NCBI GenBank assembly: GCA_027309555.1
Contig: DAIDCO010000003.1
Coordinates: 6,737 to 70,736 of the forward strand
Direction of reading: 5' to 3'
DNA from: a bacterium
Lineage (GTDB): Archaea; Thermoplasmatota; Thermoplasmata; Lutacidiplasmatales; UBA184
Length of the DNA stretch: 64,000 bases
Under the pieces are notes generated by a model. That model saw only the letters and a program-made list of their open reading frames with translations, was not told the origin of the DNA and made no database searches. Shown one piece after another: positions 32,654-51,172 of this stretch. Each line of letters starts with the position of its first letter. Position 1 is the stretch's first letter. The translations under genes and the position numbers were made by a program.

Positions 32654-32952
32654 CGGTCTCCGTCAACCCGCCCCTGACTCATATGGTTTGCAGTTGATAC
32701 CGACCGTCGCGCGACGGACGGCTCCCCGGGTCGAGGCAACGGCAACAGGAGACTCGGTAGTAGCCCCGCCGTTTGGCCACCGCCGGGGCGCTGAACCGCC
32801 CGGACGTCGGTGGGGAGAGTATCCTTGGGTTGCGCTTTGCGGAACGTAATGATGCGCGCATCGCGGCCGTCCGATTGTCTGGCCGGCCTCTCGGTTCCGG
32901 AGTTGCATCCGAGCAGGGACTCGTGACAGCCATGCAGCGCTGCGCCGCAAAG

Positions 32953-33027
32953 TGGGCCCAGTCGGATTTGAACCGACGACCTCCCGGTTATCAGCCGGGT
33001 GCTCCAGCCAAACTAAGCTATGGGCCC
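32953..33027 (-). tRNA. tRNA-Ile (anticodon GAU)
   Basis: Manual fold: 7-bp acceptor (GGGCCCA/UGGGCCC), D-stem GCUU/GAGC, anticodon stem CCCGG/CCGGG with loop CUGAUAA, T-arm GUCGG-UUCAAAU-CCGAC, discriminator A, and no encoded CCA. Confidence 0.9.
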
Positions 33028-37798: not shown

Positions 37799-40700
37799 AT
37801 GCCGTCGCTACGGGGCCTCGGGCATCGCGGCTTCTCCGGGGCAGATTCCGTAGCCCCGTTCGGGAGCGGTGCGAAGGGTGGTTCCCGTCCCCTGCGCCGA
37901 TGGGGACGAACTGCCGGCCTTCGCCGAGAGGCCCGTACCTGGGCCCCCGGGGCAATCCTCGGGTTCCTCCTGCTGCTGGCGACGCTCTCTCCCATGGGAG
38001 GAGCCGCCCCCCTCCCGCACGCGGGCGGGAGCCATTCCGAGAGACCGGGGCCGGGAATGCCTTGGCGCCTCCCGACGCCCCCCTCTCCGCGCGCGCCGGT
38101 CACGGTCGGACCGAGTCCGTTGGGACCGGGAACCGTGGTGGGGACTCTCGTTCTCGCGAACGACAGCTATTTCCCGGGGAACTTCCCGGCGAACAACCCG
38201 GCCGCCATCACGAGCCCGGTCTACGACCCCGCGACCGCTCGGGTCTACATCGCCGACACCGACACCGACAATATCACGGTCCTCGACCCGAGCACGGGAG
38301 CCTTCGTCGCAAACTATCCCACGGGCACGACCAACTTCTCTGCCACCTCCCCCACGGGCATGGCACTCGATAGCTCGAATGGGGACCTCTACATCGCGAA
38401 CTCGGGGAACTCCTCCGTACTCGTCTGGGACCCCCGTACGCTCGCTCCGGTCGCCACGATTCCGGTCGCCAACGGGACCAACACCCTGGCGTACGACCCG
38501 CGGGATGGCGATCTCTTCGTGACCGCCCCCGCCGGAGTCACGGTGGTCTCGGTGATCAACGCGACCACGAACCGGGTGGTCGCGACGGTTCCCGTGGGAG
38601 TCTCTCCGCAGGCGATCGCGGTCGACACGCATACCGGCAGCGTCTTCGTCGGGAACTACGGCAGCAGCAACGTCTCCGTGCTGAACGCCACGAGCTTCGC
38701 CGTGAACCGCACGATCCCTCTGGCCGCCTCCGATGCCCCGAGCGCCGCCTGCTTCGATCCGGTCACGAACGAGATCCTGGTGACCAGCGGGGCCCTCGGC
38801 ATCGTCACCGTCCTCAACGCGAGCATCGGCGCGGTCGTCGCGAACATCACGGTCGCGCCGGCGCTCGCCCACGCGAACCTCGACGCGATCGCGTTCGACA
38901 GTACGAATCACGCCGTCTACACCGCCGATGCCGTCGGCCGGGTCGTGAACGTCCTCAACGTCTCCGCGCGCACCGTCCGGACCAATATCAGCGTCGGGGG
39001 CGAGCCGTCGGGCGTCGCGTTCGACCCGGTACAGAACACCCTCTACTCGACGAACCTCCTCACCGAGAACGTGAGCGTGATCGACCCGGTGACGAACCGC
39101 GTGGTTGCGAGCCCCCGGCTCTCCACGAGTCCCTGGGGCGTCGCCTTCGACCCGACGAACCGGGACCTGTTCGTCTCGAACTCCACCTCGTACGGCGAGG
39201 AGGGCCTCGGCACCGTGATGTCGGTCAATACGAGCACTCCGCGCGTCGGCACCATCTCCGGGTTCGGGTTCGCCCCGTCGGCGCCCCCCCTCGGCTACGG
39301 CACCTACGACGAGACGTACGACCCGGCCAATGGGCGGCTCTACGTGCTCCTCTCCGTGTATGACGGCGCGAACGCGACCACGTACGAGGCGCTCGGAGTG
39401 GTCGACGGACGCACGGGGACCCGCATTTCGGTACTGCCGCTCGAGTACGGCCTGAGCTGCCTGGCGTTCGACACCGCGAACCAGGTCGTCTACGTCGGGG
39501 CGGGATCCCCGAGCGGGGGGTACCTGCTCGGGTTCAACTCCACGGACGCGCTCGTCTCCCAGCTTCCGCTGAACGCGAGCCCGCAGGGGGTCGCCTTCGA
39601 CCCCGCGAACGGGGACCTGTACCTTACGGCGAGCGTGGGCGCCGTAGGTGAGCTCATCGCCGTGGATCCGATAACGAACAAGACCGTGGCGATGTACTCC
39701 CCGGACCCCACGTTCACCGCCACTCGTACCGTCGTGTATGACTCCGTTACCGCGGAGATCTTCGCGGGGAACGACCTCAACGGGCTGGCGGTCCTCAACG
39801 CGACGACCGGCCGATGGGTCGGGAACGTGACCGGGGTCGGGTTCACCGGTCCCGCCGTGTTCGATCAGGCGAACGGCCTCATCTACACCACGGAGGCCGG
39901 AACCAACGACGTCGCCGCCATCAACGGTTCCGCGCTTACGACCGTCGCGACGATTCCGGTCGGGATCGAGCCCGAGGGGATCGCGATGAACGGATCGGGC
40001 GAGACGCTCTACGTGGCGAACCTGCTCTCGGGCAGCATCTCGACGATCTCCCTGGGCGCATCCCCCCCGCCGACCTTGAGCACGGTAACGGTGACCCCGG
40101 GCACTGCGAGCATCCTCCCGCACGGCAACGCCACTTTCACCGCTACCCCGAGCTGCCGCGGCGGCCCCTGCCCGGTCGGTACTACCTACGCCTGGACGCT
40201 CAACAATAGCCTCGGGACCCTGAGCTCGACCAACGGGAGCACGACCTCGTTCACGGCCGGGACTTCGGGAGGCACGGCGATGCTCCACGTCACGGCAGCC
40301 CTCAACGGAGCTAGCGCCTACGGCTCCGCGGCGATCACGGTCGGCCCCGTCACGCCGGGGTTGGTCTCCGTGACGATCTCCCCCGCAAGCGTCACGGTCG
40401 TCGGGCCGAATGGCACCGTGAACCTGACCGCGAGCCCCAGTTGTCGCGGCGGCGCCTGCCCCGCGGGAACGACGTACCTCTGGTCGCTCGGCGGCGCCCT
40501 CGGAACGCTCAACGCGAGCTCGGGGAGCCGGGTGCGCTTCATCGCCGCCGGTACGACCGGGTCTACTACGGTCACGGTCACTGCATCGCTCCACGGGGCC
40601 AACGCTTCGGCGTCGGCGACGATCACCGTCTCCGAGCGTTCCCCGCCCCCGACGTCGGGAGGCGCCTTCCCGACCGGGTATCTCGAGATCGGGCTGGCGC

Positions 40701-40810
40701 TCGCGGCGGTCCTTGCGCTGGGGCTGTATCTCCGGAAGTTCCGAAAGTGGAAGGAGAAGCCCCCCGCATCCGCCCCGGGCCCGCCGGGGCCTTATAGAAT
40801 AATCTATTAG
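37799..40810 (+). CDS. large cell-surface protein with YVTN beta-propeller repeats, duplicated Cys-containing Ig-like domain and C-terminal TM anchor
   Basis: 1003 aa. Signal peptide-like segment; more than 10 YVTN repeats; dozens of N-x-S/T sequons; two copies of PSCRGG[PA]CP[VA]GTTY.W.L; C-terminal LALAAVLALGLYLRKFRKWKEK. Confidence 0.75.
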   Translation: MPSLRGLGHRGFSGADSVAPFGSGAKGGSRPLRRWGRTAGLRREARTWAPGAILGFLLLLATLSPMGGAAPLPHAGGSHSERPGPGMPWRLPTPPSPRAPVTVGPSPLGPGTVVGTLVLANDSYFPGNFPANNPAAITSPVYDPATARVYIADTDTDNITVLDPSTGAFVANYPTGTTNFSATSPTGMALDSSNGDLYIANSGNSSVLVWDPRTLAPVATIPVANGTNTLAYDPRDGDLFVTAPAGVTVVSVINATTNRVVATVPVGVSPQAIAVDTHTGSVFVGNYGSSNVSVLNATSFAVNRTIPLAASDAPSAACFDPVTNEILVTSGALGIVTVLNASIGAVVANITVAPALAHANLDAIAFDSTNHAVYTADAVGRVVNVLNVSARTVRTNISVGGEPSGVAFDPVQNTLYSTNLLTENVSVIDPVTNRVVASPRLSTSPWGVAFDPTNRDLFVSNSTSYGEEGLGTVMSVNTSTPRVGTISGFGFAPSAPPLGYGTYDETYDPANGRLYVLLSVYDGANATTYEALGVVDGRTGTRISVLPLEYGLSCLAFDTANQVVYVGAGSPSGGYLLGFNSTDALVSQLPLNASPQGVAFDPANGDLYLTASVGAVGELIAVDPITNKTVAMYSPDPTFTATRTVVYDSVTAEIFAGNDLNGLAVLNATTGRWVGNVTGVGFTGPAVFDQANGLIYTTEAGTNDVAAINGSALTTVATIPVGIEPEGIAMNGSGETLYVANLLSGSISTISLGASPPPTLSTVTVTPGTASILPHGNATFTATPSCRGGPCPVGTTYAWTLNNSLGTLSSTNGSTTSFTAGTSGGTAMLHVTAALNGASAYGSAAITVGPVTPGLVSVTISPASVTVVGPNGTVNLTASPSCRGGACPAGTTYLWSLGGALGTLNASSGSRVRFIAAGTTGSTTVTVTASLHGANASASATITVSERSPPPTSGGAFPTGYLEIGLALAAVLALGLYLRKFRKWKEKPPASAPGPPGPYRIIY

Positions 40811-40834
40811 AACCCATGCTCCCTTACCTCTCTC

Positions 40835-42169
40835 ATGGGACCGAACCGTACCCCCCGCCTCGTACCCTTCCTCGCCGAGTCCGACGACCGACGCCGCTGG
40901 CACCGGAACGTAGCCCAAGGAAGCCGCGCCACGGCCGACGTCTACGTCCGACGCCTCGCCGCCTTCTCTCGCCTCATGAAAGTCACACCAGAGGCTTTGG
41001 CGCGCATGAGCGACAAACCGCTCCGCGACCTCGTCATGGACTTCGTCGAAATCGAGTCGAAGGCCAAGCACGCCGGTTCCTACATCCACAGCACCGTCAA
41101 GGCCGTCAACTCGTGGCGCAAGCACAACGGCCGCCTCGCCGTGACCGGCGTGAACATCCGGGGTCGGGAATCCACTCCCACGCTGGTCGACGAGATCGCT
41201 CCGTCGCCCGGGCAGGTACGGACCGTTCTCGCCCGGGCTCCCCTGAGGGACCGGGTGACCTGCGCCCTCATGGCCTACAGCGGCGTCCGTCCCGAGGTCG
41301 TCGGCAACTACCTCGGCGACGACGGTTTCACCCTCGGGGATTTCCCCGAACTCGACCTCTCGGGCAGCGAGCCCAAGTTCCGGAAGGTTCCCGCTCTGGT
41401 GGTCGTCCGCGAGTCGCTCTCCAAGGCCCGGCACACCTACCTCACCTTCGCCCCGCTCCCAACGTGCAAGGCGATCGAGGACTACCTCAAGCTCCGGATC
41501 GCTCAAGGGGAGAAGCTGACGCGGGCGAGCGACCTCGTGAGTCCGGGACGGGGGCGGAGACCTTTCCTGCGGACGATGAACGTCAGCGGGGCGGTGCGGG
41601 CCGCGTTCCGGTCGCTCGACATGAAGGACCGGCCGTACGTTCTGCGGGTATTCTTCGAGACCCGCCTCGGCGTCGCCGAGGGCCAGGGGAAGGTCGTGCA
41701 TCGGTTCGTGGTTCACTGGGGCGGCCACACCGGCGACATCACCGCGCGCTACTCGCTCAACAAGAACCGCCTGCCGGGGGACCTCGTCGAGGAGATGCGG
41801 GAGGCATACCGACGGTGCGAGCCGATCCTCACGGGGGAAGTCGCCTCGGAGGGTGACGTGCGCCGCGAGGTCGCGCGGGTGCTCTTGGGATCCCTTGGGT
41901 ACTCCGAGAAGGAGCTGGAAGGGGTCGACCTGTCGAACCTCGAGCAGGTCCGGGCGCTCACCCAGAAGCGTGTCGCCCCGACCCCCAAGAAGCAGGCCCT
42001 CGTCCGCGTCGACGAGTTGCCCGGGTATCTGGACGCGGGTTGGACCTTCGCGGGAAACGTCGGTCAAGACCGGATCCTCCTCAACCCACCCGAAGCAGGA
42101 GCAGGACCCACGAGTCCGCCTTCGCCGCCAGTATCGCACGGGGGAGACGGTCCGGTTCCCCCTCGATGA
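40835..42169 (+). CDS. tyrosine-type site-specific integrase/recombinase
   Basis: 444 aa. Box I-like YSGVRPEVV (Arg), box II-like HRFVVHWGGHTGDITARYS (His-x-x-Arg ... His ... Tyr). Confidence 0.6.
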   Translation: MGPNRTPRLVPFLAESDDRRRWHRNVAQGSRATADVYVRRLAAFSRLMKVTPEALARMSDKPLRDLVMDFVEIESKAKHAGSYIHSTVKAVNSWRKHNGRLAVTGVNIRGRESTPTLVDEIAPSPGQVRTVLARAPLRDRVTCALMAYSGVRPEVVGNYLGDDGFTLGDFPELDLSGSEPKFRKVPALVVVRESLSKARHTYLTFAPLPTCKAIEDYLKLRIAQGEKLTRASDLVSPGRGRRPFLRTMNVSGAVRAAFRSLDMKDRPYVLRVFFETRLGVAEGQGKVVHRFVVHWGGHTGDITARYSLNKNRLPGDLVEEMREAYRRCEPILTGEVASEGDVRREVARVLLGSLGYSEKELEGVDLSNLEQVRALTQKRVAPTPKKQALVRVDELPGYLDAGWTFAGNVGQDRILLNPPEAGAGPTSPPSPPVSHGGDGPVPPR

Positions 42170-42385
42170 GTAGGCGGACCGGGTCTCCGGACGGGAGGTG
42201 CCGCGCCACTCCCTTCAAGGGACGCAGATCCACGAGGTCGTCGAGGGACTCTCTGGCGACAGCATCCCGTTCGTCCGGCGCCGCGCTCAGGGCCTCGGTA
42301 TCGGGGTTGCATTCCGCGTGGACCCCCGCCAAGACACCGGGTTGCCGAATCGAAAGAGGACTGGTAGGAGATCGAATGGCAGCGC

Positions 42386-43213
42386 TCACTCCTTCCCCTC
42401 CGTCGGAGCTTCCTGCTCTCCGAAGACCCCAGCGAGCTGGAGCGGGAACGCGGCCCGGAGCGCTCGCTCCTCCGCCGCCTTCCGGAGCATCGTGATAGGC
42501 ATCTCGACCCACGGCCTCGTGGGTTGGCCGTCCTTGCGCTTCCGGACCGCTTCCTCGAACCAGACCTCCTCCACCAGCGGACGGCTCCAGTCTTTCCGGT
42601 GGACCCGACAGACGGCCTTGACGGGCTTCTCCGGACCGTCGGGCCCCTTCGCGAGCTCTACGCCAATCTCCCGTCCGTCGTACTGGCCGCTCCGCTCGGC
42701 GACGGCCCGCATCCCGTCGATGCCGACAAACGGATGGATCTTGTCCGCGGGATCAAACCGTAGGAACTTCACCTGGCCGAGCCAAACGTCGAGCCCGATC
42801 CGTCGGGCTACCTCGAGCCCGAACGCGATCTCGTCCGCGGTGGAATCCGGGGGGAACCGGCCGGCCGAGCGGAGGACCGCGACCTGCTCCGCGGTAAGTC
42901 CACCGCAGGGTCGTACGCGTAGGTCGGAGGCGGAGCGGAGTGGCGGGCTCCCGGAATCGGGAGAAGAGACCGGATTCGGCTCCGAGGGGGGTACCGGGGG
43001 CAGTCCTGCTTCTTCACGCGCCCTCTCGAAGCAGACGGGCTCGACTCTTCTCCCACGAGATCCGTCACCGTCACCCAGGACGTAGACCGCGCCCGTCGAC
43101 GACCGGGGGACCCTGCGGCCGCAAGCCGCACACTCATACGATCGGTGCCCGCGGTAAACCGAGTAGGAGAGTCCCTCCTCCGAATCGCCCGAGGGCAAGT
43201 CTCTACCGCTCAT
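42386..43213 (-). CDS. RecT/Redbeta-like single-strand annealing protein with N-terminal zinc finger
   Basis: GIDGMRAVAERSGQYDG resembles the RecT core motif (GIDGYRxxAxRxGxYxG). N-terminal YECAACGRR. Start ATG at 43213 (alternative 43309). Confidence 0.45.
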   Translation of the reverse strand: MSGRDLPSGDSEEGLSYSVYRGHRSYECAACGRRVPRSSTGAVYVLGDGDGSRGRRVEPVCFERAREEAGLPPVPPSEPNPVSSPDSGSPPLRSASDLRVRPCGGLTAEQVAVLRSAGRFPPDSTADEIAFGLEVARRIGLDVWLGQVKFLRFDPADKIHPFVGIDGMRAVAERSGQYDGREIGVELAKGPDGPEKPVKAVCRVHRKDWSRPLVEEVWFEEAVRKRKDGQPTRPWVEMPITMLRKAAEERALRAAFPLQLAGVFGEQEAPTEGKE

Positions 43214-43449
43214 GTCGGGTCCCTCCGGCAGGCTCCGAAACGGATTCCCTCGGCGTGACGGACTCGGAAGCACTCCCCCGACTCCGTCGGTTCGTGGCAG
43301 ATCACGCACGAGATCGTCGAGGTCAGGAGCAACTCATGGGCCGACTCAGGATGACCGCAGGCCGGACAGGGGTCGACCTCGCCGTAGGATGGTGCCTCCG
43401 ACCATGGAGGTAGATCGACGGCCAGGGACTCGGCCAGCTCCGCGGTCAT
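43210..43449 (-). CDS. small zinc-ribbon protein
   Basis: 79 aa, CPACG...CVICHEPTESGEC. Coupled by ATGA overlap to the flanking genes. Confidence 0.35.
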   Translation of the reverse strand: MTAELAESLAVDLPPWSEAPSYGEVDPCPACGHPESAHELLLTSTISCVICHEPTESGECFRVRHAEGIRFGACRRDPT

Positions 43450-43748
43450 CACAGTGCCCTCTCCGGCGACTTCGCGCGCGAGATGTCGAATGTCCGCCGC
43501 TCCTCGAGGATCCGCCGGACCAGCCGGTCGAACGACTCGTAGCCGACGAGATTCCCTTCGGAGTCTACCAAGGGGCGACGGAGCGAAGCGAGGAGGCTCC
43601 ACGTCTCTGGACGGAGGCGGACAATGCCCCTCGGCGATATTGGCCGGATCCTGCCAACTGAACTTGGGCCGGCCCGTGGCGCTGCTTCCCCGAACCCCTT
43701 CGTCCGCATCAATTCGCACCTTTCGTTACGAATGGTACGAATACGCAC
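43449..43748 (-). CDS. ribbon-helix-helix (CopG/Arc-like) small regulator
   Basis: GIVRLRPETWSLLASL...FDRLVRRILEE beta-strand-helix pattern. Start may be the internal ATG near 43709. Confidence 0.35.
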   Translation of the reverse strand: MRIRTIRNERCELMRTKGFGEAAPRAGPSSVGRIRPISPRGIVRLRPETWSLLASLRRPLVDSEGNLVGYESFDRLVRRILEERRTFDISRAKSPERAL

Positions 43749-43757
43749 AATCTATAA

Positions 43758-43991
43758 GTGCCTTCCCCTCTTTATGTAACGTCCGTGACGACGACCGCCC
43801 TGCCCAAGCCCAAGAAGAAGATCCTCCCGAAGGTGTCCGTCGCGGGACGAATCGAACGAGGCTACTACGAGGACCTCGTGCGGATCATCGACGGCGACGA
43901 CCACTTCAACCGGATCGGAGACTTCGTCCGAGAGGCGGTCTTGGAGAAGATCGATCGGTGGAAGAAGGAACATCCCCGTGGTCTGTCGTGA
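43758..43991 (+). CDS. ribbon-helix-helix (CopG family) DNA-binding protein
   Basis: KKILPKVSVAGRIERGYYEDLVRII...FVREAVLEKIDRWKK. Divergent from the minus-strand RHH. A TATA-like TCTATAAG lies about 20-40 nt upstream. Confidence 0.45.
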   Translation: MPSPLYVTSVTTTALPKPKKKILPKVSVAGRIERGYYEDLVRIIDGDDHFNRIGDFVREAVLEKIDRWKKEHPRGLS

Positions 43992-44458
43992 GCCTTTTCC
44001 TAACGAACCCTAACAGGGGCCGCCCCTTCGGGGAAGAAGAACCGAGATATCGGGGATCTCGACCCCAGAAGGTAGAACCAATTTCAACGGGCTTGGAGTA
44101 TCCGAGGCGGCCCCATCTATCGCTTCGGTTCCGCCATCCCACAGGACGGCCCTTGCCACCGCGGCCGATAGCCCCGTCCTCCCGTGGTATCGCAGCTCGA
44201 GAACTTCGAGCTTCCCAGCGAGCGGCCCAACCACGCTCGCTTGCGCGGTTGCCCAAAGGTGTACGTTGCGGCGAAGGGCAGCCTAGCGGCAGAGGATGAT
44301 ACTGATCCCGGAAAAACCCAAATGAGCAAAGCTCGGTACTTCACACAGGACTCGCTCTCAGTATTCGGGCGAGCCTCTCGGGTGGCAGGGTGCGGCGACT
44401 GCGTCAATCGAACCGCACCATTAACCACTGAGGCGTAGCTCCGTAATGCGACAGCGCG

Positions 44459-45565
44459 ATGCCTAACACTGACGAGACTGTGTGGGAGATGGAACCGCAC
44501 ACGGGTTCCAAGCACGACATTCTCCGTCACTATCTGAATCGCTGGCTTCCGATCCTCGGAAAGCGGAGCACGACGATGAACTACATTGACGCATTCGCGG
44601 GCCCCGGAATTTACAAGGGGGGCGAGCCCGGGAGCCCGGTAGTCGCGATTGAAACCGCCCGAACCCACGTCATGCGACCAAAGGGAAAGGTGAATTTCCT
44701 CTTCATTGAGAAGGACGGCGAACGAGCTCGGGTCCTCAAGGAGCAACTCGCCAGTCGTTTCCCGGCGGGGACCCTACCCGACGGTTGGAGCTACGCAGTC
44801 GAAAACGGAGAGTTCGTGACCGTAGTGGAGAAAGGTCTCAACGAAATCGAGGCCCAAGGAAACCACCTTGCTCCGACGTTGGCGTTTCTCGACCCGTTCG
44901 GATTCTCGGGACACGACCTCCCCATGTCAACGGTCGGAAGGATTCTCAAAGCCCCCCGGTGCGAGGTGTTTGTTACCTTCATGGCAGGGTTCGCCACCCG
45001 GTTTCCGGAGGTCGTCCCGCCTGACACTATGACGAAGCTGTTCGGCGACGAGAGGTGGCGCGGTGTCGTCGACCTCAAAGGCGAGGCCCGTACCGACTTC
45101 CTCCTTGCGACATACGAGGGGTCGCTCAAGACAATCGCTGGAGCCAAGTTCACACGTAGCTTCGAAATGAAATCCTCTGACGGTCGCGTGATCTACGACC
45201 TCGTCTTCGCGACGAAGCACCCCAAGGGACTCGAGGCAATGAAAGAGGCCATGTGGGAGATTGACCCGCGAGGCACCTACACCTTCTCGGACCGCACCGA
45301 TCCAAACCAACGATTCCTCATCGAGTTCGACGGCGGTGTGGAGCCGCACTGGGTGGCGAAGGCCGCGCAGATGCTCCTCGTCCGGTTTTCTGGCAAGACC
45401 ATCTCGAGGAGAGCCCTTTGGGAGTATGTCGTAGTCGACACTCCGTTTCCCGACCGCTCCTCAGTCCTCAAGCGGCTGGAACTCGATGGCAAGCTAACGG
45501 TCTCGGGGCGACAGAGAAAACTCAGCTACCCCGACGGGTGTACGCTATGCTTCCAGCCCTCTTGA
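44459..45565 (+). CDS. tcmP: three-Cys-motif partner protein TcmP
   Basis: N-terminal W.MEPHTGSKHDILRHYL..W signature, about 368 aa. Convergently paired with a Gp37/Gp68 (DUF5131) gene, as the family definition states. Confidence 0.65.
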   Translation: MPNTDETVWEMEPHTGSKHDILRHYLNRWLPILGKRSTTMNYIDAFAGPGIYKGGEPGSPVVAIETARTHVMRPKGKVNFLFIEKDGERARVLKEQLASRFPAGTLPDGWSYAVENGEFVTVVEKGLNEIEAQGNHLAPTLAFLDPFGFSGHDLPMSTVGRILKAPRCEVFVTFMAGFATRFPEVVPPDTMTKLFGDERWRGVVDLKGEARTDFLLATYEGSLKTIAGAKFTRSFEMKSSDGRVIYDLVFATKHPKGLEAMKEAMWEIDPRGTYTFSDRTDPNQRFLIEFDGGVEPHWVAKAAQMLLVRFSGKTISRRALWEYVVVDTPFPDRSSVLKRLELDGKLTVSGRQRKLSYPDGCTLCFQPS

Positions 45566-46273
45566 CTGGCTCGGAAACTCGTTCCAAGTGCGACCGTCCA
45601 GAATACGCCCTGTTCTTGCCTTTTGGACGCCTCCCCATTGCTTGAAGAAGAAGGGGACTGCCTCGCGGCGGCATCGGTTCCTCAGCGTCCTGACCCACTC
45701 CTTCCTCATGGGTCGCGCGTGAGGTCCGCTTTCTCCTCCGACAATAACCCACTGGATCCCGGAGAGGTCCAGTTCATCGAGGGGACCGAGGAGCGGTTCG
45801 AGCGAAAGGAACCGGACGTCAGCGGGGACCTTGCGGAGTTCGTCCGCCCGCCACCCGACGTCCATGTTCTCGATGCTGACTCCCTGCCAGATGTTGGGTT
45901 GCCACGGGAGTGAGGGTCCTACCTCCGCCAACCGCCTCGCGCGTTTCGTCAGAATCTGGAAGACATGCTGGCGGGCGACGACCATTGTCGCGAAGACACG
46001 CCGAATGAAGGTGACCGGCACACGTTCATGGTAGAGGTCGCTCATCGAGTTGACGAAAATTCTCCGGGGCTCTGTCCACGATAGAGGCAACTCGAGGCGG
46101 TCTTCCCAAAGACGGAGGTCGAAGCCCTGCTCAAACGGGTGGCCGGGCACCCCTCGGAAACGCTCCGCGAACCGTTGCGCATAACAGTGTTTACAACCCT
46201 GGCTGACCTTCGTACAACCCGTGACCGGGTTCCACGTCGAGTCCGTCCACTCTATCGAGGAGGACTCGCTCAT
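45545..46273 (-). CDS. phage Gp37/Gp68 family protein (DUF5131, three-Cys motif)
   Basis: WNPVTGCTKVSQGCKHCYA three-Cys signature at the N-terminus. 242 aa. Confidence 0.75.
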   Translation of the reverse strand: MSESSSIEWTDSTWNPVTGCTKVSQGCKHCYAQRFAERFRGVPGHPFEQGFDLRLWEDRLELPLSWTEPRRIFVNSMSDLYHERVPVTFIRRVFATMVVARQHVFQILTKRARRLAEVGPSLPWQPNIWQGVSIENMDVGWRADELRKVPADVRFLSLEPLLGPLDELDLSGIQWVIVGGESGPHARPMRKEWVRTLRNRCRREAVPFFFKQWGGVQKARTGRILDGRTWNEFPSQSRGLEA

Positions 46274-46396
46274 CCCTCACGACTTGAACGGCACCCTCCT
46301 TTAGGGTTCCGTCCGTACGGTCCCCCGCGAGCCGAGTCGGATCCTGCGGCCCTCCGTGGAAAACTCGATTACCCATGACCCCTACTCCCCCGTGAC

Positions 46397-49294
46397 TTGC
46401 CAGTAAGCGAGGATACGATCAACGACCTCGTCGCGGACTACCTCCGCGGCGAGTTTGACGTGGACATTACAACCCAGCCGACCGGACAGATTCCCGCAGG
46501 CCGGCGGAAGCCCGACTTCGAACTCCACTGGGACGGGAAGACGTACTTCGGCGAGGGCGAGTGGCTCTCGTCGTACGGTCGGGGCTTACAGCAGGCCTTG
46601 GATTTCGGCGAAATCCCCGGGGCCAGTGGCTGGTTCCTGCTCGGGTATCCAGACGAAATCAAGCGCGAGGTGACACAGCGACGCCTTGGGTCGGCCGACC
46701 CGGCAACCCTACTCAGGGGGCTGACATTCCGCCAGTGTCTCCTCAAGGGCCCGGGAACGCCCGCCGACCTTCGTCAGGTTCGCGTAGAAGACCTTCATGC
46801 GTGGATTGGTTCCGTCCTCGCCGCTCGTCCACCTGCCCCCGAGCCCGCCGAGTTCATCCGGCTGATGCACTATGTCGTCGGGAACCTCGCCACGTTCCTT
46901 CCGAAGACGAAGGGAGCGGCACGACTGTTCGAGCATGTCGTGGCTATGATTCCGAGCAAGAAGGACGAGGAGGATGCCGCTCGGACCGGGGCGGCATACC
47001 TCCTTCTGAACCAGCTTGTCTTCTATCGTCTATTGGCCGGGCACACCGAACTGGGGTGGCCTCAGATGGAGGCTCGTTCGGTCAGGTCTCCACTCGACGT
47101 GAAGGTGTACTTTGACCGCGTGATGCAACAGGACTATCACGCGATCTTCAAGACGAACGTAATCGACCTGTTCCCTCAGCGCGCGTTCCCGTTCATCCAA
47201 AGCCTCATCAAGCTCGTCTCGGAGCTTCAACCCGAGGCGTTCACACGGACCCTCCTCGGGACGATTTTTCATCAACTGATCCCCGAGCCGGTTCGAAAGC
47301 CGGTCGCTGCCTTCTACACTCAACCACCAGCGGCCCGCCTTCTAGTCGGACTTGCGGGTGTTCATGGGTCCGATCGAGTTTCGGATTTCGCCTGCGGTTC
47401 GGGAACTCTCCTCGTGGCTGCCTACGAGGCGAAGAGCGAGACGGACTCCCGACCGAACTCTCAGTCGCGTCACGCGACGTACCTTGAGCAGGAGTTGACG
47501 GGAATCGACATCATGCCGTTCGCCGCGCACTTGGCCGTCGTCCAACTGGCCCTGATGAATCCCACTCAGTGGACGAACCGGGTCCAGGTCGCGGTCGACA
47601 ACAGCCTCGAAAAGCGGGTTGGCGACGTCGTTCGTTCCCTCGAGCGTCACGCGGTCTCCCCGCAGACTCGACTCTCTCACTTCGCTGAGGAACCGGAGGA
47701 GCGGGCTCGTACGGTCCGCGGGGCCGTTTCTACGAATGGGGCGGGGGCTCAGTTCAAGCTTGTCCCGCCTCAGGTCGTACTGATGAATCCACCGTTCTCA
47801 CGGAAGCAGTTCATCTCGAAGGAGTACCGGAAGGAACTGGCGACGAGCTTCACGGACGAGGCAAAGTTCCACCGAAACGACATGGGCTACTGGGGGTACT
47901 TCGTCCTCCTCGCCGACCGGTTCCTTCCTGACGGAGGAAAGCTCGCACTCGTCATCTCGGCAGCCCTGCTCCGGGAGGGGAGTTCCGCAAGCATCCGGGA
48001 GATGCTCCGAAGCAAGTATCGCCTAGACTTCATCGTAATGAGTGCGTCTCGGACCGCGTTCAGCGAGGACGCCTCGTTCCCCGATTTCTTGCTCGTAGCG
48101 ACGAAGACGGCCGACCGGTCCAAGCCGTGTCGAGTCGCGATGCTTCACGCTCCCCTTGAACTGGAGGGGGTCGATTGGATACGGACCCGAATCGAGAGCG
48201 GAGAGGGGGCTCCCGAAGTCGCTGTGGCTACGCTTGCTCAGGACCGATTCGCCGCTGACGATTGGCTCCCGCTGGTCCCCGGTGCGGTTCCGGACGAATC
48301 TAGTATCCTTCTCCCCAAGACGGCGCCAGTTTGCAAGTTGGGTGCCGTGTCCGGCCTCGGTCTGATTCAGGGAATCCGGATGGAATCGGGGAGCGAGTTC
48401 GCGAACCCAGCGGACATGCTCGTCTCTTCCGAGCGAAGTTACGAGTCGCGAGCCGCCTGGAAGACAACGAAGGAGGACGCCCGGGTTGTCGTCGCATACA
48501 ACCCAGAGGGGGCGCGGGAGGTCACGATTCCACGGCACGCCCTTCTCCCGGCGCTGAGAACGATCTCAGGAAGCCGACGACTCGAAGTCAAAGGACGACC
48601 TCCTGACTATGTTGTCGCGGAGAGGTTCCCCCACGACACCGAGTTCTGGGTGACGAAGAATCCCGAGGGAATGCTCGTCCGTCGTCGTAAGCACTTGCGG
48701 AGTCGCGTGGGGAACATCGTCTTCGGCGGCTATGGCAATCTCAATCTCTCTGCCGAGGGAACTTCGCTTCTCGCAGTGGCCTCGAAGTCGGGAATCGCCC
48801 CGACTTGGAACTGTTGGAGTGTGAAGACTCCCGATTGGGACACAACCCGAATTCTCACGCTGTGGTGGAATTCAACGTTCAACCTACTCTACCTCCTTCA
48901 CCACCGGATGGAGGTCGAGGGTGCCACTATGAAGTGGCGCAAACCGAGTCTCGAGGCAGCCCCTGTCCTCGACATTCGGCAGTTGGACGCAGGGACGAAG
49001 GCGAGGCTTCTCGCCCTGTTTGACCGACTCACCGTAGTCGACTTCCCCTCCATCGCCGAGCAGTACGCCAAGGCGCCCCCCCAAAGGACGGAACTCGACT
49101 CCGAAGTGGGTCGGGCTCTCGGGATTGCCAAGGAGGAACTCCCGAGCCGGTTGAATGACCTCTACCGACTCGTCAGCGACGAATTGACTACTCTGAGGTC
49201 TCGGATGAAGGCCACCTCGCTCGCCAAGAGTCACGGACACGTTCGACGCCCCTCGAGCATCGAGGAGCATGTCGACGGCGGGCCAGTGGACTAA
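46397..49294 (+). CDS. type IIG restriction-modification enzyme (MmeI-like; N6-adenine methyltransferase fused to an N-terminal region)
   Basis: 965 aa. Gamma-class MTase motif I DFACGSGTLL followed by motif IV LMNPPF. About 300-aa N-terminal region before the MTase core and about 350-aa C-terminal TRD-like region. Confidence 0.7.
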   Translation: MPVSEDTINDLVADYLRGEFDVDITTQPTGQIPAGRRKPDFELHWDGKTYFGEGEWLSSYGRGLQQALDFGEIPGASGWFLLGYPDEIKREVTQRRLGSADPATLLRGLTFRQCLLKGPGTPADLRQVRVEDLHAWIGSVLAARPPAPEPAEFIRLMHYVVGNLATFLPKTKGAARLFEHVVAMIPSKKDEEDAARTGAAYLLLNQLVFYRLLAGHTELGWPQMEARSVRSPLDVKVYFDRVMQQDYHAIFKTNVIDLFPQRAFPFIQSLIKLVSELQPEAFTRTLLGTIFHQLIPEPVRKPVAAFYTQPPAARLLVGLAGVHGSDRVSDFACGSGTLLVAAYEAKSETDSRPNSQSRHATYLEQELTGIDIMPFAAHLAVVQLALMNPTQWTNRVQVAVDNSLEKRVGDVVRSLERHAVSPQTRLSHFAEEPEERARTVRGAVSTNGAGAQFKLVPPQVVLMNPPFSRKQFISKEYRKELATSFTDEAKFHRNDMGYWGYFVLLADRFLPDGGKLALVISAALLREGSSASIREMLRSKYRLDFIVMSASRTAFSEDASFPDFLLVATKTADRSKPCRVAMLHAPLELEGVDWIRTRIESGEGAPEVAVATLAQDRFAADDWLPLVPGAVPDESSILLPKTAPVCKLGAVSGLGLIQGIRMESGSEFANPADMLVSSERSYESRAAWKTTKEDARVVVAYNPEGAREVTIPRHALLPALRTISGSRRLEVKGRPPDYVVAERFPHDTEFWVTKNPEGMLVRRRKHLRSRVGNIVFGGYGNLNLSAEGTSLLAVASKSGIAPTWNCWSVKTPDWDTTRILTLWWNSTFNLLYLLHHRMEVEGATMKWRKPSLEAAPVLDIRQLDAGTKARLLALFDRLTVVDFPSIAEQYAKAPPQRTELDSEVGRALGIAKEELPSRLNDLYRLVSDELTTLRSRMKATSLAKSHGHVRRPSSIEEHVDGGPVD

Positions 49295-49401
49295 CCGCCT
49301 GTGAGAGTCAACGCCGTCTGTCGACCACTCAACGGATGATACGACGTGCAGAGCCCACGCCTCCGCCTCATTAATGGGACGCTTCCGGCTCAGGGGAGTA
49401 C

Positions 49402-49605
49402 ATGCGGATGGCGGAGGCCGTCGCAGTCGGGCTCGTGACGGCCTTCTGGATACTAATCGACCTCTGGCTTCTGCTCAATCCCGACATTGCGGACGGTCTT
49501 GCTGGGAATCTAGGCACGTCCGCGATCGTCCTCGAATTGGGTGTCCTACTCCTCGGAGGTCTTGCCACATGGACGACACACTGGGCGGCCGAAAATCTGG
49601 ACTGA
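49402..49605 (+). CDS. small membrane protein
   Basis: 67 aa with two hydrophobic helices. Confidence 0.3.
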   Translation: MRMAEAVAVGLVTAFWILIDLWLLLNPDIADGLAGNLGTSAIVLELGVLLLGGLATWTTHWAAENLD

Positions 49606-49711
49606 ACTACGGGTCGGCCATTCTCGGTGGGAAACTACAACTCGCAGAGGTCTCTTGGTCCCGCAACGGCCCAAGCTCGCGGGCTCGAACTGCCATGAGT
49701 CCGCCATTGAT

Positions 49712-49933
49712 TCAGGCCCCCTGCTTTGAGGAGGGGCCCCTCGAAGCCGTGGCGTGAACGACTCCGATCGCCTCGCGGAAGTCTCGGTTCTTCCGTTCTC
49801 CCGTCTCCCGGAGCGCCGTCTCGGCGAGTTTCTTGAGATCCTCCGGGACGTCCCTCCTCGACTTGATCGAGTCGTAGAACATGAGGGCCATCTCTCTCGC
49901 GCCGTCCCAGTACTCCCTATCGAACCGATTCAT
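49712..49933 (-). CDS. small hypothetical protein
   Basis: MNRFDREYWDGAREMALMFYDSIKSRRDVPEDLKKLAETALRETGERKNRDF. About 73 aa, helical and charged. Confidence 0.3.
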   Translation of the reverse strand: MNRFDREYWDGAREMALMFYDSIKSRRDVPEDLKKLAETALRETGERKNRDFREAIGVVHATASRGPSSKQGA

Positions 49934-50098
49934 GATGAACCACCTTCTGGGACTCGGATTGTATGCGCGGGCGCATATCACCCACACCGGGAGTTCCTGA
50001 AACACCTCCCCCGTCAGCGCATCCGAGCCTGTCGAGGGGGTCCCGTTTCAGGCCCGGCTCCATTCGAGCCCAGCCCCCTTGGAAGCCTACTCGACGTT

Positions 50099-50944
50099 CT
50101 ATCCCTTCCCTGACAGCCTCCGTCTTACCATGACCGCTCCCGACGTCCTTGGTGGCGGTCGTTCAAGCTCGTACTTCCCAGGAATCGCCTCCAGGAGGTC
50201 CCCCAGCTTGCTCTTTCCGAAGGTGCGCGGATCGAAGGCAGGATCGAGCTTCAGCAACGCGTTGCCCAGCTCCGCCAGGTGACAGTATCCGTCCTCCCCG
50301 ACAACTGAGTCAAAGGCCTTATCGATGAGCTCGAAGGCTTCGGTCGAGGCCCGACGACCGCCAGGACCTTCTGTCAGGGCCGAGGCACTCGGGGTCGTCG
50401 CAGAGGAAGGCCTCCTCGACCTCGCAGGCGGCGGGCTCTCTCTGCGAGATCCAATCAGGTTCTCGGTGGCCACGAACACGTTGCATGCGTTTCTGAACGC
50501 GGGAGGGGTCTGGGCCCTACCGATCCCCACGACGAACATGCCAGACTCGCGAAGCCGGGTGGCCAATCTCGTGAAGTCCGAGTCAGACGATACGATGCAA
50601 AATCCTCTGACCCTGCCGCTGTGCAGGATGTCCATGGCATCGATGATCAGCGCGCTATCGGTGGCATTCTTCCCTGAAACCGCGGTGAACTGCTGAACCG
50701 GGACCAGCGCATGCTCCTGAACCGTGGGTCGCCAGGAGGAGAGCTTACCGGAGGCCCAGTCGCCATAGATCCGTCGGATCTCAACTGACCCGTACTTCGC
50801 TGCCTCGGCGAGCATCTCACCGACGAGCCCGGCGGACGCATTGTCTCCATCCACGAGGAAGGCGAGAGGGAGCGATCGAGAATGCGTTACGAGCTCGAGG
50901 GTACCCGGCTCGGCATCGGGAGGCATGGGCCTGGCGATGCACAT
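50099..50944 (-). CDS. NYN (LabA-like PIN) nuclease domain protein with C-terminal OST-HTH/LOTUS domain
   Basis: LAFLVDGDNA (NYN Asp cluster), IVSSDSDF, and a C-terminal OST-HTH-like segment (GYCHLAELGNALLKLDPAFDPRTFGKSKLGDLLEAIP). Confidence 0.6.
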   Translation of the reverse strand: MCIARPMPPDAEPGTLELVTHSRSLPLAFLVDGDNASAGLVGEMLAEAAKYGSVEIRRIYGDWASGKLSSWRPTVQEHALVPVQQFTAVSGKNATDSALIIDAMDILHSGRVRGFCIVSSDSDFTRLATRLRESGMFVVGIGRAQTPPAFRNACNVFVATENLIGSRRESPPPARSRRPSSATTPSASALTEGPGGRRASTEAFELIDKAFDSVVGEDGYCHLAELGNALLKLDPAFDPRTFGKSKLGDLLEAIPGKYELERPPPRTSGAVMVRRRLSGKG

Positions 50945-51172
50945 GAACGTGATGAAACTTACACACCTCGGCGTTGGCCCATGACGGATGGGTCCGGGCC
51001 CGACTCAATTCGGGCCGCCGTCCACGACCTTCTCCGAAGTGGCGTACACGAATAGCTACAACAGTTACTTCTGTACGCGAATGTGAAATATACCTCGGCG
51101 TCGATGATCACCCTCGGGCGAGGCGGGCGGAATCCTGGGTGAGGCGTTGCCGCCCGACCTCGTCCCCGTACC

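What the first reader, a model, noticed from the sequence alone, without database searches (positions are those of the whole stretch)
40835..43991. Integrase, RecT-like annealing protein, zinc ribbon and divergent RHH regulators: a phage-type recombination/regulation module
An intact 444-aa tyrosine recombinase is followed on the opposite strand by an ATGA-coupled operon of RHH, Zn-ribbon and RecT-like genes. A second RHH gene is divergent from it across a low-GC, TATA-containing intergenic region (about 43710-43790). This is the typical early/lysogeny architecture of temperate elements. RecT-type proteins are rare in archaea.
Basis: partly seen in the sequence, partly recalled or inferred. 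Interest (0 to 1): 0.55.

Follow-up and report, generated by a model that had tools for sequence, protein, structure and literature searches.

The report
Archaeal defence island with integrase–RecT core
The flagged genes are the conserved 3.2-kb core (a tyrosine integrase, a RecT/Bet-type DNA-annealing protein and four small proteins) of a family of small integrated elements in Thermoplasmata archaea that carry changing sets of restriction and anti-virus genes; this is not a virus.

Summary
40835-42169(+) encodes a full-length but divergent tyrosine recombinase. 42386-43213(-) encodes a true RecT/Redβ-family annealase with an extra N-terminal Zn-ribbon-like domain. A 68-aa RHH-like gene diverges from the operon across a 75-bp, 44% GC spacer with one TATA box.

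About 20 other Thermoplasmata loci carry the same six-gene block, with up to three copies per genome. In 15 junctions (14 other loci plus the window), homology stops at exactly the same base next to the int promoter (window 40776), against at least 13 unrelated flanks. The other side always carries different restriction-modification or defence genes; here these are a TcmP/DUF5131 pair and a 965-aa methyltransferase.

No virion or replication genes were found, and the viral contig collection gave no RecT, integrase or 188-aa hit and one weak, likely irrelevant RHH2 match. I read it as the core of an 8.9-kb cryptic integrated defence island (40776-49679). The att core (CGGGCYCG) is tentative, and no empty site was found. 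RHH folds are unverified. RecT probably drives recombination between element copies, because a mosaic breakpoint lies inside recT.

The parts
40776..40834 (+). Element terminus and int promoter. Conserved CGGGCCCGCCGGGGCC (GGCCC-N4-GGGCC hairpin-like, tentative att core CGGGCCCG at 40776-40783), followed by a TATA-like TTATAGAATAATCTATTAG. The upstream 1003-aa surface-protein ORF runs 33 nt into it and takes its stop codon (40808-40810) from it.
   Evidence: Module homology ends at exactly 40776/40777 in 15 junctions (14 other loci plus the window), against unrelated outside flanks. The sequence occurs once in the window.
40835..42169 (+). int: a divergent 444-aa tyrosine recombinase. The gene stays intact in the integrated state. 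The last ~29 codons are a non-conserved tail that overlaps p102.
   Evidence: family, XerA profile hit, invariant R152/K197/Y268xxR271/H298/Y306. (third-position diversity pattern; in the tail 42080-42169 the pattern fits the p102 frame, not the int frame).
Its N-terminal half is variable and probably disordered. Its C-terminal ~50-aa domain (about 42084-42242) is conserved: VDLRPLK..LP..DPVR.LIEGEPD.LP..VLAAKADSWVLLLL. Function unknown.
   Evidence: Called in the window's own public contig. Conserved in all loci. AF2 pLDDT is 90-95 for residues 50-101, with a β-α-α-β-α fold. No PDB match.
42386..43213 (-). recT/bet-like single-strand annealing protein, 275 aa. It has an N-terminal ~65-aa Cys/His β-sheet domain (Zn-ribbon-like), a disordered linker of about 30 aa, and a RecT/Redβ core (aa ~108-272).
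   Evidence: HMMs; 83 homologs, nearly all 276 aa, N-terminal domain conserved; model and Redβ/RecT fold match.
43210..43449 (-). ZnR79: a 79-aa protein with eight invariant Cys/His residues, probably a zinc ribbon or treble clef. Function unknown.
   Evidence: Only a weak bL32 zinc-ribbon similarity (E=0.04). No Pfam, PHROG or PADLOC hit.
43449..43709 (-). Its conserved core is IVRLxPETWxLLAxLRRPLxDSEGNLVGxESFDRLVRRIL. The fold is not established.
   Evidence: No RHH hit. A weak CBS-motif similarity. No profile similarity to RHH2.
43710..43784 (.). Divergent control region, 44% GC. It has a single TATA box (CTATAAG, 43752-43758) about 27 nt from the RHH2 GTG. The TATA box is 43 nt from the RHH86 ATG here and about 30 nt in most other loci. 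In most copies it is flanked by the inverted repeat CGTAACG...CGTTAC. Here there is a 13-bp insertion that creates TACGAAT-GG-TACGAAT.
43785..43991 (+). RHH2: a 68-aa, very highly conserved protein (about 80-95% identity) with a β-α-α (CopG/NikR-like) sequence pattern. Its last few codons are variable and mark the cargo boundary (homology ends at about 43975).
   Evidence: No HMM or PDB support.
43992..49679 (.). Variable cargo of this copy (GC 0.59-0.62). It holds TcmP-family 44459-45565(+), DUF5131 45545-46273(-) and a 965-aa N6-adenine methyltransferase (Eco57I/MmeI/MAD2-like) 46397-49294(+).
   Evidence: PADLOC candidate systems PDC-M30A/B and PDC-M41A/B, plus MTase models. Other loci carry different cargo at the same place.
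49680..49687 (+). Tentative right-end att core, CGGGCTCG. Homology to the p73 flank of other genomes resumes here within ±2 nt, against three unrelated cargo ends.

Best explanation
The finding is the conserved 3.2-kb core of a family of small chromosomally integrated mobile elements of Thermoplasmata. These elements belong to the 'cryptic integrated element' or defence-island class.

**Extent in this window (inferred).** The element runs from 40776 to about 49679 (8.9 kb). It consists of terminus/att, int, the convergent operon (86-aa protein, ZnR79, RecT, p102), the divergent RHH2 gene, and then defence cargo (TcmP/DUF5131 pair plus a 965-aa methyltransferase).

**How it works (shown and inferred).**
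1. The tyrosine recombinase inserts and possibly excises the element at a short core that abuts its own promoter. The sharp terminus is shown. The core sequence and any recombinase activity are inferred.
2. One shared TATA box drives two divergent, probably leaderless transcripts. RHH2 and/or the 86-aa protein probably repress it through the flanking inverted repeats. The layout is shown. The regulation is inferred.
3. The RecT/Redβ-type annealase, together with ZnR79 and p102, anneals single-stranded DNA. This would allow recombination between resident and incoming or paralogous element copies, producing mosaic modules, exchanging cargo, and possibly repairing the element after cleavage. The mosaicism and a swappable RecT slot are shown. 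The mechanistic role is inferred by analogy with Bet/Exo of SXT/R391 and IncC elements.
For: - **Module conservation.** The six genes occur in the same order in about 20 independent Thermoplasmata loci. One MAG has three copies and another has two.
- **Sharp int-side end.** Homology ends at the same base (40776) in 15 junctions (14 other loci plus the window), with at least 13 unrelated flanks. Those flanks carry ordinary genes, such as a two-component system, a Na+/H+ exchanger and a glycosyltransferase.
- **Cargo.** It is always restriction-modification or defence genes and differs between loci: Dnd, GmrSD, type III-like R-M, SNF2/Vsr, and TcmP/DUF5131. Cargo GC is 0.59-0.62 against 0.66-0.68 for the module.
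- **Right junction.** It falls at the same position ±2 nt against three unrelated cargo ends and begins CGGGCTCG, compared with CGGGCCCG at the left end. The motif density gives P of about 0.002 for such a hit.
- **Mosaicism.** Identity to L011/13/14/23 is 96-99% from 40776 to about 42575 and 50-73% from about 42876 to 43775, so the breakpoint lies inside recT.
- **Swappable slot.** Sibling elements (int 51% identical) keep the RHH2, RHH86, ZnR79 and p102 homologs. In place of recT they have a 188-aa + 121-aa (weakly nuclease-like) + 88-aa set.
- **Not viral.** No virion or replication genes were found. Viral contigs hold no RecT, integrase or 188-aa relative; the RHH2 scan gave one weak giant-virus hit.
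- **Precedents.** Thaumarchaeal integrated elements have att sites as short as 8 bp. Some insert into 3' ends of genes and supply a new stop codon, and some carry R-M cargo (PMC6563490). Redβ-like Bet in ICE R391 and IncC plasmids repairs breaks (PMC7498323).
Against: - No empty site and no excised circle were found. Every contig holding the p73 flank also has cargo next to it.
- The proposed att core is only 8 bp and matches 7 of 8. In L002 the two ends match only 5 of 8.
- The module has host-like GC and codon usage. It sits next to the same p73/surface-protein flank in at least five species-level genomes. Both facts fit long residence or domestication.
- There is no exonuclease partner for RecT and no replication gene.
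- Several copies show frameshifts in int or recT (L001, L009, L013, L014, L023). These may be decay or long-read errors.
- The regulator roles and the functions of ZnR79 and p102 are guesses.
Confidence: 0.6

Rival explanations
1. Domesticated, essentially immobile chromosomal locus. Under this view the int-RecT block is an old resident that marks a defence-gene hotspot. Cargo turns over by ordinary homologous recombination using the module and the p73 gene as homology arms. The integrase no longer moves anything.
For: The same p73/surf896 neighbour appears in the window, L011, L013, L023, L002 and L038-L040. Module GC and GC3 are host-like. No empty site was found. All six genes are under purifying selection.
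Against: There are two or three diverged copies per genome at different loci. The terminus is base-precise against at least 13 unrelated flanks. The cargo junction at p73 is precise to ±2 nt, which simple homologous replacement would not give. The int gene is intact with invariant catalytic residues.
Confidence: 0.17
2. Early/lysogeny region of a temperate archaeal virus or a decayed provirus.
For: Integrase, SSAP and small divergent regulators form a classic phage early-region combination. PHROG families match RecT. A sister RecT clade sits in a different MGE-like context with an orphan methylase and an AAA ATPase (L025).
Against: None of about 20 loci shows capsid, portal, terminase or replication genes within 10 kb. 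There are no relatives of RecT, int or the 188-aa family in 2.9 million viral contigs. The variable part is 5 to more than 10 kb of defence genes. The four small proteins have only 49 relatives among 1.84 billion representatives, all within their own families.
Confidence: 0.08
3. Cassette-capture platform, integron-like in logic. The integrase would insert promoterless or self-contained defence cassettes at a fixed site, so the module would be the platform rather than the passenger.
For: Cargo always starts at the same point, at the 3' end of RHH2. There is nested variation within cargo that shares both ends (L013, L023, L040). A separate single-gene NYN cassette with 15-bp direct repeats lies nearby. 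L011 has a perfect 72-bp duplication beginning at the terminus.
Against: The only base-precise conserved end next to the int promoter faces ordinary chromosomal genes, not the cargo. The RHH2-side boundary is a decaying gene end rather than a sharp site. No repeated attC-like element was found in the cargo. The NYN repeats differ from the CGGGCYCG core.
Confidence: 0.1

Closest known systems
Cryptic integrated elements (CIE) of archaea, as catalogued in Thaumarchaeota (Krupovic et al. 2019, PMC6563490)
   Same: Both are small (mostly under 20 kb) integrase-bearing elements without virion or conjugation genes. Both carry R-M cargo and RHH proteins. Their att sites can be as short as 8 bp, and some insert into the 3' end of a protein gene and supply a new stop codon. 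Here the surface-protein ORF ends inside the terminus.
   Different: This family has a fixed six-gene core with a RecT/Redβ annealase. It occurs in two or three copies per genome. No replication protein was found. The att site and the empty site were not demonstrated. The hosts are Thermoplasmata.
Bet/Exo (Redβ/λ-Exo-like) recombination modules of SXT/R391 ICEs and IncC plasmids (Roy et al. 2020, PMC7498323)
   Same: In both, an integrating element encodes its own Redβ-family annealase. That system repairs breaks in a RecA-independent manner. Mosaic modules are seen here.
   Different: Those elements are bacterial and conjugative and have a dedicated exonuclease and SSB. Here no nuclease or SSB is present. 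The annealase carries an N-terminal Zn-ribbon-like domain and is co-operonic with two orphan small proteins.
λ Redβ / phage RecT annealases (PDB 7ujl, 7ub2)
   Same: The Pfam RecT HMM scores well above its cut-off, and the fold matches (TM 0.70 to the Redβ N-terminal domain).
   Different: Identity is only 18-23%. The protein falls below the TIGR01913 bet_lambda equivalog cut-off (71.5 against 76.95 bits). It has an extra N-terminal domain and no Redβ C-terminal Exo-binding domain. The host is archaeal.
Archaeal XerA / pNOB8-type (non-partitioning) tyrosine integrases
   Same: The catalytic R-K-(H/Y)-R-H-Y set is present. The profile hits XerA (4a8e). The int gene remains intact when integrated.
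   Different: The protein is too divergent to hit PF00589 itself. Box II His is replaced by Tyr. It has a long N-terminal region and a C-terminal ~100-aa extension. The target is not a tRNA gene in this window.

Membership tests
Tyrosine recombinase (Phage_integrase PF00589 / XerA-like) | Catalytic residues R...K...H-x-x-R...H/W...Y in order | tested here: met
   R152, K197, Y268-x-x-R271 (Tyr in place of His), H298 and Y306 are invariant in 23 family members. The alignment to XerA pairs PYVLR with PHQLR.
Tyrosine recombinase (Phage_integrase PF00589 / XerA-like) | Significant HMM or profile match to the family | tested here: met
   The window protein alone has no hit. 11 of 23 homologs hit PF00589 (best 1.5e-7). 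The family profile against XerA (4a8e) gives E=9.4e-7.
Tyrosine recombinase (Phage_integrase PF00589 / XerA-like) | Site-specific recombination activity on a defined att site | not testable with these tools
   There is only indirect evidence: a base-precise terminus in 15 junctions, 14 other loci plus the window.
RecT/Redβ single-strand annealing proteins | Pfam RecT (PF03837) above the gathering score | tested here: met
   89.5 bits against a cut-off of 24, E=2.8e-25. All homologs carry PF03837.
RecT/Redβ single-strand annealing proteins | Rad52-superfamily annealase fold | tested here: met
   The AF2 core has pLDDT 82-93. Foldseek gives 7ujl (Redβ) at E=1.8e-8, TM 0.70, and 7ub2 (RecT) at 3.4e-4.
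RecT/Redβ single-strand annealing proteins | Equivalog of λ Bet (TIGR01913 cut-off) | tested here: not met
   71.5 bits against a cut-off of 76.95. It is a family member, not a Bet equivalog.
RecT/Redβ single-strand annealing proteins | Adjacent partner exonuclease (RecE, λ Exo, YqaJ) | tested here: not met
   No nuclease family was found in any module gene with Pfam, NCBIfam, PHROGs or PADLOC.
Ribbon-helix-helix (CopG/Arc/MetJ) regulators | HMM, profile or structure match to an RHH family | tested here: not met
   There were no hits for the 68-aa or the 86-aa protein, nor for their most distant relatives. The two do not match each other.
Ribbon-helix-helix (CopG/Arc/MetJ) regulators | N-terminal β-strand followed by two helices with a short turn | tested here: inconclusive
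   RHH2 and its distant relatives show the pattern by eye. The 86-aa protein has a 13-residue insert and a weak CBS-like motif. No structure model was made.
Archaeal cryptic integrated element / integrated defence island | Integrase at one end, with no virion or conjugation genes | tested here: met
   and about 20 related loci.
Archaeal cryptic integrated element / integrated defence island | Flanking direct repeats (att) | tested here: inconclusive
   The 8-bp repeat CGGGCCCG / CGGGCTCG lies at independently defined junctions, with P of about 0.002. In L002 the match is only 5 of 8.
Archaeal cryptic integrated element / integrated defence island | Presence/absence polymorphism (an empty site in relatives) | tested here: not met
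   All eight contexts that hold the p73 flank carry cargo. Mobility is inferred from multiple copies and unrelated flanks.
Temperate virus / provirus | Virion, packaging or replication genes, or membership in viral contig collections | tested here: not met
   None was found within 10 kb in any locus. RecT, the int family and the 188-aa family are absent from IMG/VR. RHH2 gave a single weak hit in a giant-virus bin.

The most novel reading that the evidence does not exclude
Thermoplasmata (and, through the wider integrase family, possibly other archaea) may carry a modular 'recombination engine' for defence islands. This would be a fixed scaffold (integrase, RHH2, 86-aa protein, ZnR79, p102) with an exchangeable annealase slot. 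The slot would be filled either by a Zn-ribbon-fused RecT or by an uncharacterised 188-aa protein plus a PD-(D/E)xK-like nuclease. The 188-aa family could then be a new archaeal annealase family. In this reading the engine, rather than the host's RadA pathway, drives cargo shuffling and mosaicism, and perhaps chromosome rearrangements between copies. ZnR79 and p102 would be archaea-specific adaptors of the annealase. That would also make the set a candidate recombineering tool for archaea.
Probability: 0.25. Interest if true: 0.7.

Novelty: new variant of a known kind. Interest (0 to 1): 0.5.

Why it matters
How defence islands move and reshuffle is known mainly for bacteria, and archaeal examples are few. 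This family offers three things:
- A compact, recurrent and easily recognised core that marks variable defence cargo in soil and acid-mine Thermoplasmata. It is useful as a beacon for finding new archaeal defence systems.
- One of the few cases of a RecT/Redβ annealase fixed in an archaeal lineage, with lineage-specific partner proteins.
- Direct sequence evidence of recombination inside the module.

If the annealase set works in archaeal cells, it could become a genetic tool for archaea, where recombineering tools are scarce as far as I know.

Tried and rejected
- **Searches for an att repeat.**
  - Direct-repeat search over 30-64 kb found no att candidate of 16 nt or more.
  - Searching the terminal motifs elsewhere in the window found only the one copy.
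  - A tRNA-based att is not supported. The only tRNA in the window (Ile-GAT, 32952-33027) is 7.7 kb away, and no tRNA fragment lies at the ends.
  - tRNA-Met/Asn genes near the int side in other loci are part of a conserved wHTH-tRNA host segment at variable distance, not the att site.
- **Search for an empty site.** A metagenome scan with a 28-nt p73-flank probe gave three contigs, all with cargo.
- **Searches on the small proteins.**
  - PDB profile searches for the four small proteins found nothing significant.
  - An exhaustive phmmer search of the four small proteins (concatenated) against 1.84 billion representatives gave only 49 hits, all within their own families.
  - Pfam on the most distant of those hits gave nothing.
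  - A mixed alignment of the four families (A7) was misaligned and was discarded.
- **Tests of the 188-aa family.** The idea that it is an SSAP was tested by a PDB profile search and by hhalign against RecT. Both were negative. Only a motif-level resemblance to Rad52, recalled from memory, remains, so this is a lead and not a result.
- **Other negative or rejected results.**
  - The second CGGGCCCG at 50995 looked like another att site, but it lies inside a separate NYN cassette that has its own, different repeats.
  - The sigma-70 and terminator scan is not informative for an archaeon.
  - The RHH2 hit in a giant-virus bin (41% over 34 aa) was judged irrelevant.

Full report
**Source and setting.** The window is high-GC (about 68-72%) DNA of an uncultured Thermoplasmata archaeon. 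The integrase sequence is found exactly on NCBI MAG contigs such as GCA_027309585.1 DAIDCM010000001.1. GC drops to 0.60-0.63 between about 43 and 51 kb. The only RNA gene is tRNA-Ile(GAT) at 32952-33027.

**The integrase and RecT.**
- ORF 40835-42169(+) has no Pfam, NCBIfam, PHROG or PDB hit on its own. It belongs to a large archaeal family (261 or more proteins; Thermoplasmata, Bathyarchaeota, Nitrososphaerota; several are named site-specific integrase).
- In an alignment of 23 members, R152, K197, Y268-x-x-R271, H298 and Y306 are invariant. Of these members, 11 hit PF00589. The family profile hits Pyrococcus XerA (4a8e) at E=9.4e-7. It is therefore a full-length, divergent tyrosine recombinase.
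- ORF 42386-43213(-) is a real RecT/Redβ-family protein. Pfam RecT scores 89.5 bits against a cut-off of 24. PHROG Bet-like gives 2.6e-28. TIGR01913 falls just below its equivalog cut-off.
- With an alignment of 20 homologs, AlphaFold2 gives a confident core (pLDDT 82-93) that matches λ Redβ (7ujl, E=1.8e-8, TM 0.70) and phage A118 RecT (7ub2).
- The 83 close homologs are almost all 276 aa. They share an extra N-terminal β-sheet-plus-helix domain of about 65 aa with conserved His/Cys, followed by a disordered linker.

**The operon and its control region.**
- The operon is translationally coupled. Read from the sequence, the overlaps are TGATG, ATGA and GTGA.
- Across 13 module copies, third codon positions vary most in int, the RecT core, ZnR79, the 86-aa gene and RHH2. 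In the int/p102 overlap the pattern fits the p102 frame, so the int tail is the passenger there.
- The p102 C-terminal 50 residues are conserved and fold with pLDDT 90-95, but they match nothing in the PDB.
- ZnR79 has eight invariant Cys/His residues.
- Neither 'RHH' protein has any HMM or PDB support. RHH2 and its distant relatives show the RHH pattern by eye. The 86-aa protein is ambiguous.
- The spacer 43710-43784 is 44% GC. It holds one conserved TATA box roughly equidistant from both start codons in most copies, flanked by the inverted repeat CGTAACG/CGTTAC. This suggests one shared, repressible bidirectional promoter for two leaderless transcripts; that is an inference.

**Comparison with other loci.**
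- A census of species-representative genomes, lookups of metagenome contigs and a DNA probe gave about 20 further Thermoplasmata loci with the same six genes in the same order.
- One MAG (MFD00008.bin.2.88) has three copies, with RecT 99, 70 and 66% identical to the window. Another MAG has two.
- DNA homology to the window starts at exactly 40776/40777 in 15 junctions (14 other loci plus the window), at the sequence YGGGCCCG... just upstream of the int TATA box. The outside sequences are unrelated in at least 13 of them.
- Those int-side flanks carry ordinary chromosomal genes.
- In the window, the 1003-aa surface-protein ORF runs 33 nt into the terminus and ends there. The same behaviour has been described for thaumarchaeal integrated elements (PMC6563490).

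**Cargo.**
- On the other side, homology fades inside the last codons of RHH2 (about 43975). What follows differs from locus to locus but is always restriction-modification or defence. In the window it is a TcmP/DUF5131 pair (PADLOC candidate systems PDC-M30/M41) plus a 965-aa methyltransferase.
- Elsewhere the cargo is a Dnd cluster, GmrSD plus a methyltransferase, type III-like R-M, ResIII helicases, or Vsr/SNF2.
- Cargo GC is 0.59-0.62, against 0.66-0.68 for the module.

**Right end and att.**
- In the window, L011, L013, L023, L002 and three metagenome contigs, the cargo is followed by the same small gene (p73, 49712-49933) and a surface-protein gene.
- Homology resumes at 49678-49682 against three unrelated cargo ends. 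It begins CGGGCTCG, one mismatch from the first 8 nt of the left terminus (CGGGCCCG).
- The motif occurs 0.25 times per kb, so a hit in that 7-nt window has P of about 0.002.
- I therefore place the element at 40776-49679, but the core is short and is not matched well in L002.
- No empty site was found. Whether p73 is a true host flank is unresolved, because the int-side flanks of those same genomes differ from the window's.

**Evidence for recombination within the module.**
- Against L011, L013, L014 and L023 the window is 96-99% identical from 40776 to about 42575. It falls to 50-73% from about 42876 to 43775. L010 is 90-100% identical throughout. So a breakpoint lies inside recT.
- In sibling elements whose integrase is 51% identical, homologs of RHH2 (82%), the 86-aa protein (55%), ZnR79 (61%) and p102 (70% over its domain) are kept. 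RecT is replaced there by three genes of 188, 121 and 88 aa.
- The 121-aa protein has weak nuclease or resolvase-like hits.
- The 188-aa family has more than 200 members and no detectable relatives.
- One locus has a different PF00589 integrase after the RecT operon.
- The scaffold is therefore modular, and the annealase position is exchangeable.

**What it is not.**
- No virion, packaging or replication genes were seen in any locus. RecT, the integrase family and the 188-aa family are absent from 2.9 million viral contigs.
- The four small proteins have only 49 relatives among 1.84 billion representative proteins, all within their own families.
- The provirus reading is therefore unlikely.
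- A sister RecT clade sits in a different MGE-like context.

**Interpretation.**
- The block is the core of a family of cryptic integrated defence islands.
- The integrase supplies insertion at the terminus. The small divergent genes supply control. The annealase operon supplies homology-based recombination between copies.
- The nearest functional analogue is the Bet/Exo module of SXT/R391 and IncC elements (PMC7498323).
- RecT-family proteins in archaea are rare but on record (PMC11783212).
- I did not find this module described in the paper searches I ran.

**Main weaknesses.**
- There is no empty site or excised form.
- The att core is only 8 bp.
- Three of the six proteins have no assigned function.
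- Long residence at one locus in several species cannot be excluded.

Noticed in passing
window 50072-51010 (NYN/OST-HTH gene 50099-50944): The NYN/OST-HTH gene lies in an indel of about 0.93 kb that is absent from L013 and L023. The empty site there reads GGCTCCATTCGAGCCC|GCCGTCCACG. In the window the insert is flanked by an imperfect 15-16-bp direct repeat (GGCTCCATTCGAGCCC ... GACTCAATTCGGGCC). It looks like a separate single-gene insertion without its own recombinase.
   Followed up: partly
L010, L011, L013-L016, L018, L023, L035 (long-read MAG contigs): In 9 of 10 long-read contigs the module lies 0-18.5 kb from a contig end, always on the cargo side (ranges). This suggests population-level structural heterogeneity or a repeat beyond the cargo. 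It was not examined further.
   Followed up: no
L011 12424-12565: There is a perfect 72-bp tandem duplication (2.0 copies, 100% match) whose unit begins with the module terminus TCGGGCCCG. It could be a footprint of recombination at the terminus or an assembly artefact.
   Followed up: partly
[not shown]
   Followed up: partly
L037 10872-11855: A RecT operon with RHH2 and R-M cargo is followed by a different integrase. It is 327 aa, matches PF00589, and lies on the same strand, in place of the convergent 444-aa one. An IS110 transposase is nearby.
   Followed up: no
window 37799-40810: A 1003-aa β-propeller/PKD surface protein has its last 11 codons and its stop codon encoded by the element terminus.
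   Followed up: yes
L012, L013, L014, L023, L024 (int-side flanks): A conserved host segment (a wHTH gene, with tRNA-Asn in L023, then tRNA-Met) lies 0.08-7.3 kb from the module terminus. Homology between genomes stops at the 3' end of tRNA-Met, which suggests a second integration hotspot there.
   Followed up: partly
window 43992-44458 and 49295-49711: Two stretches of about 420-470 bp inside the cargo have no convincing ORF and no Rfam match. Small called ORFs of 61-65 aa are unsupported.
   Followed up: no
window 42141-42188: A 14-nt inverted repeat (79% complementary, 20-nt spacer) brackets the int stop codon inside the int/p102 overlap. It may be a bidirectional terminator or simply a constraint of the overlap.
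   Followed up: no
L001, L009, L013, L014, L023: int or recT is split across frames in these copies. RecT of L009 is called as two fragments. This could be pseudogenisation or long-read homopolymer errors.
   Followed up: no
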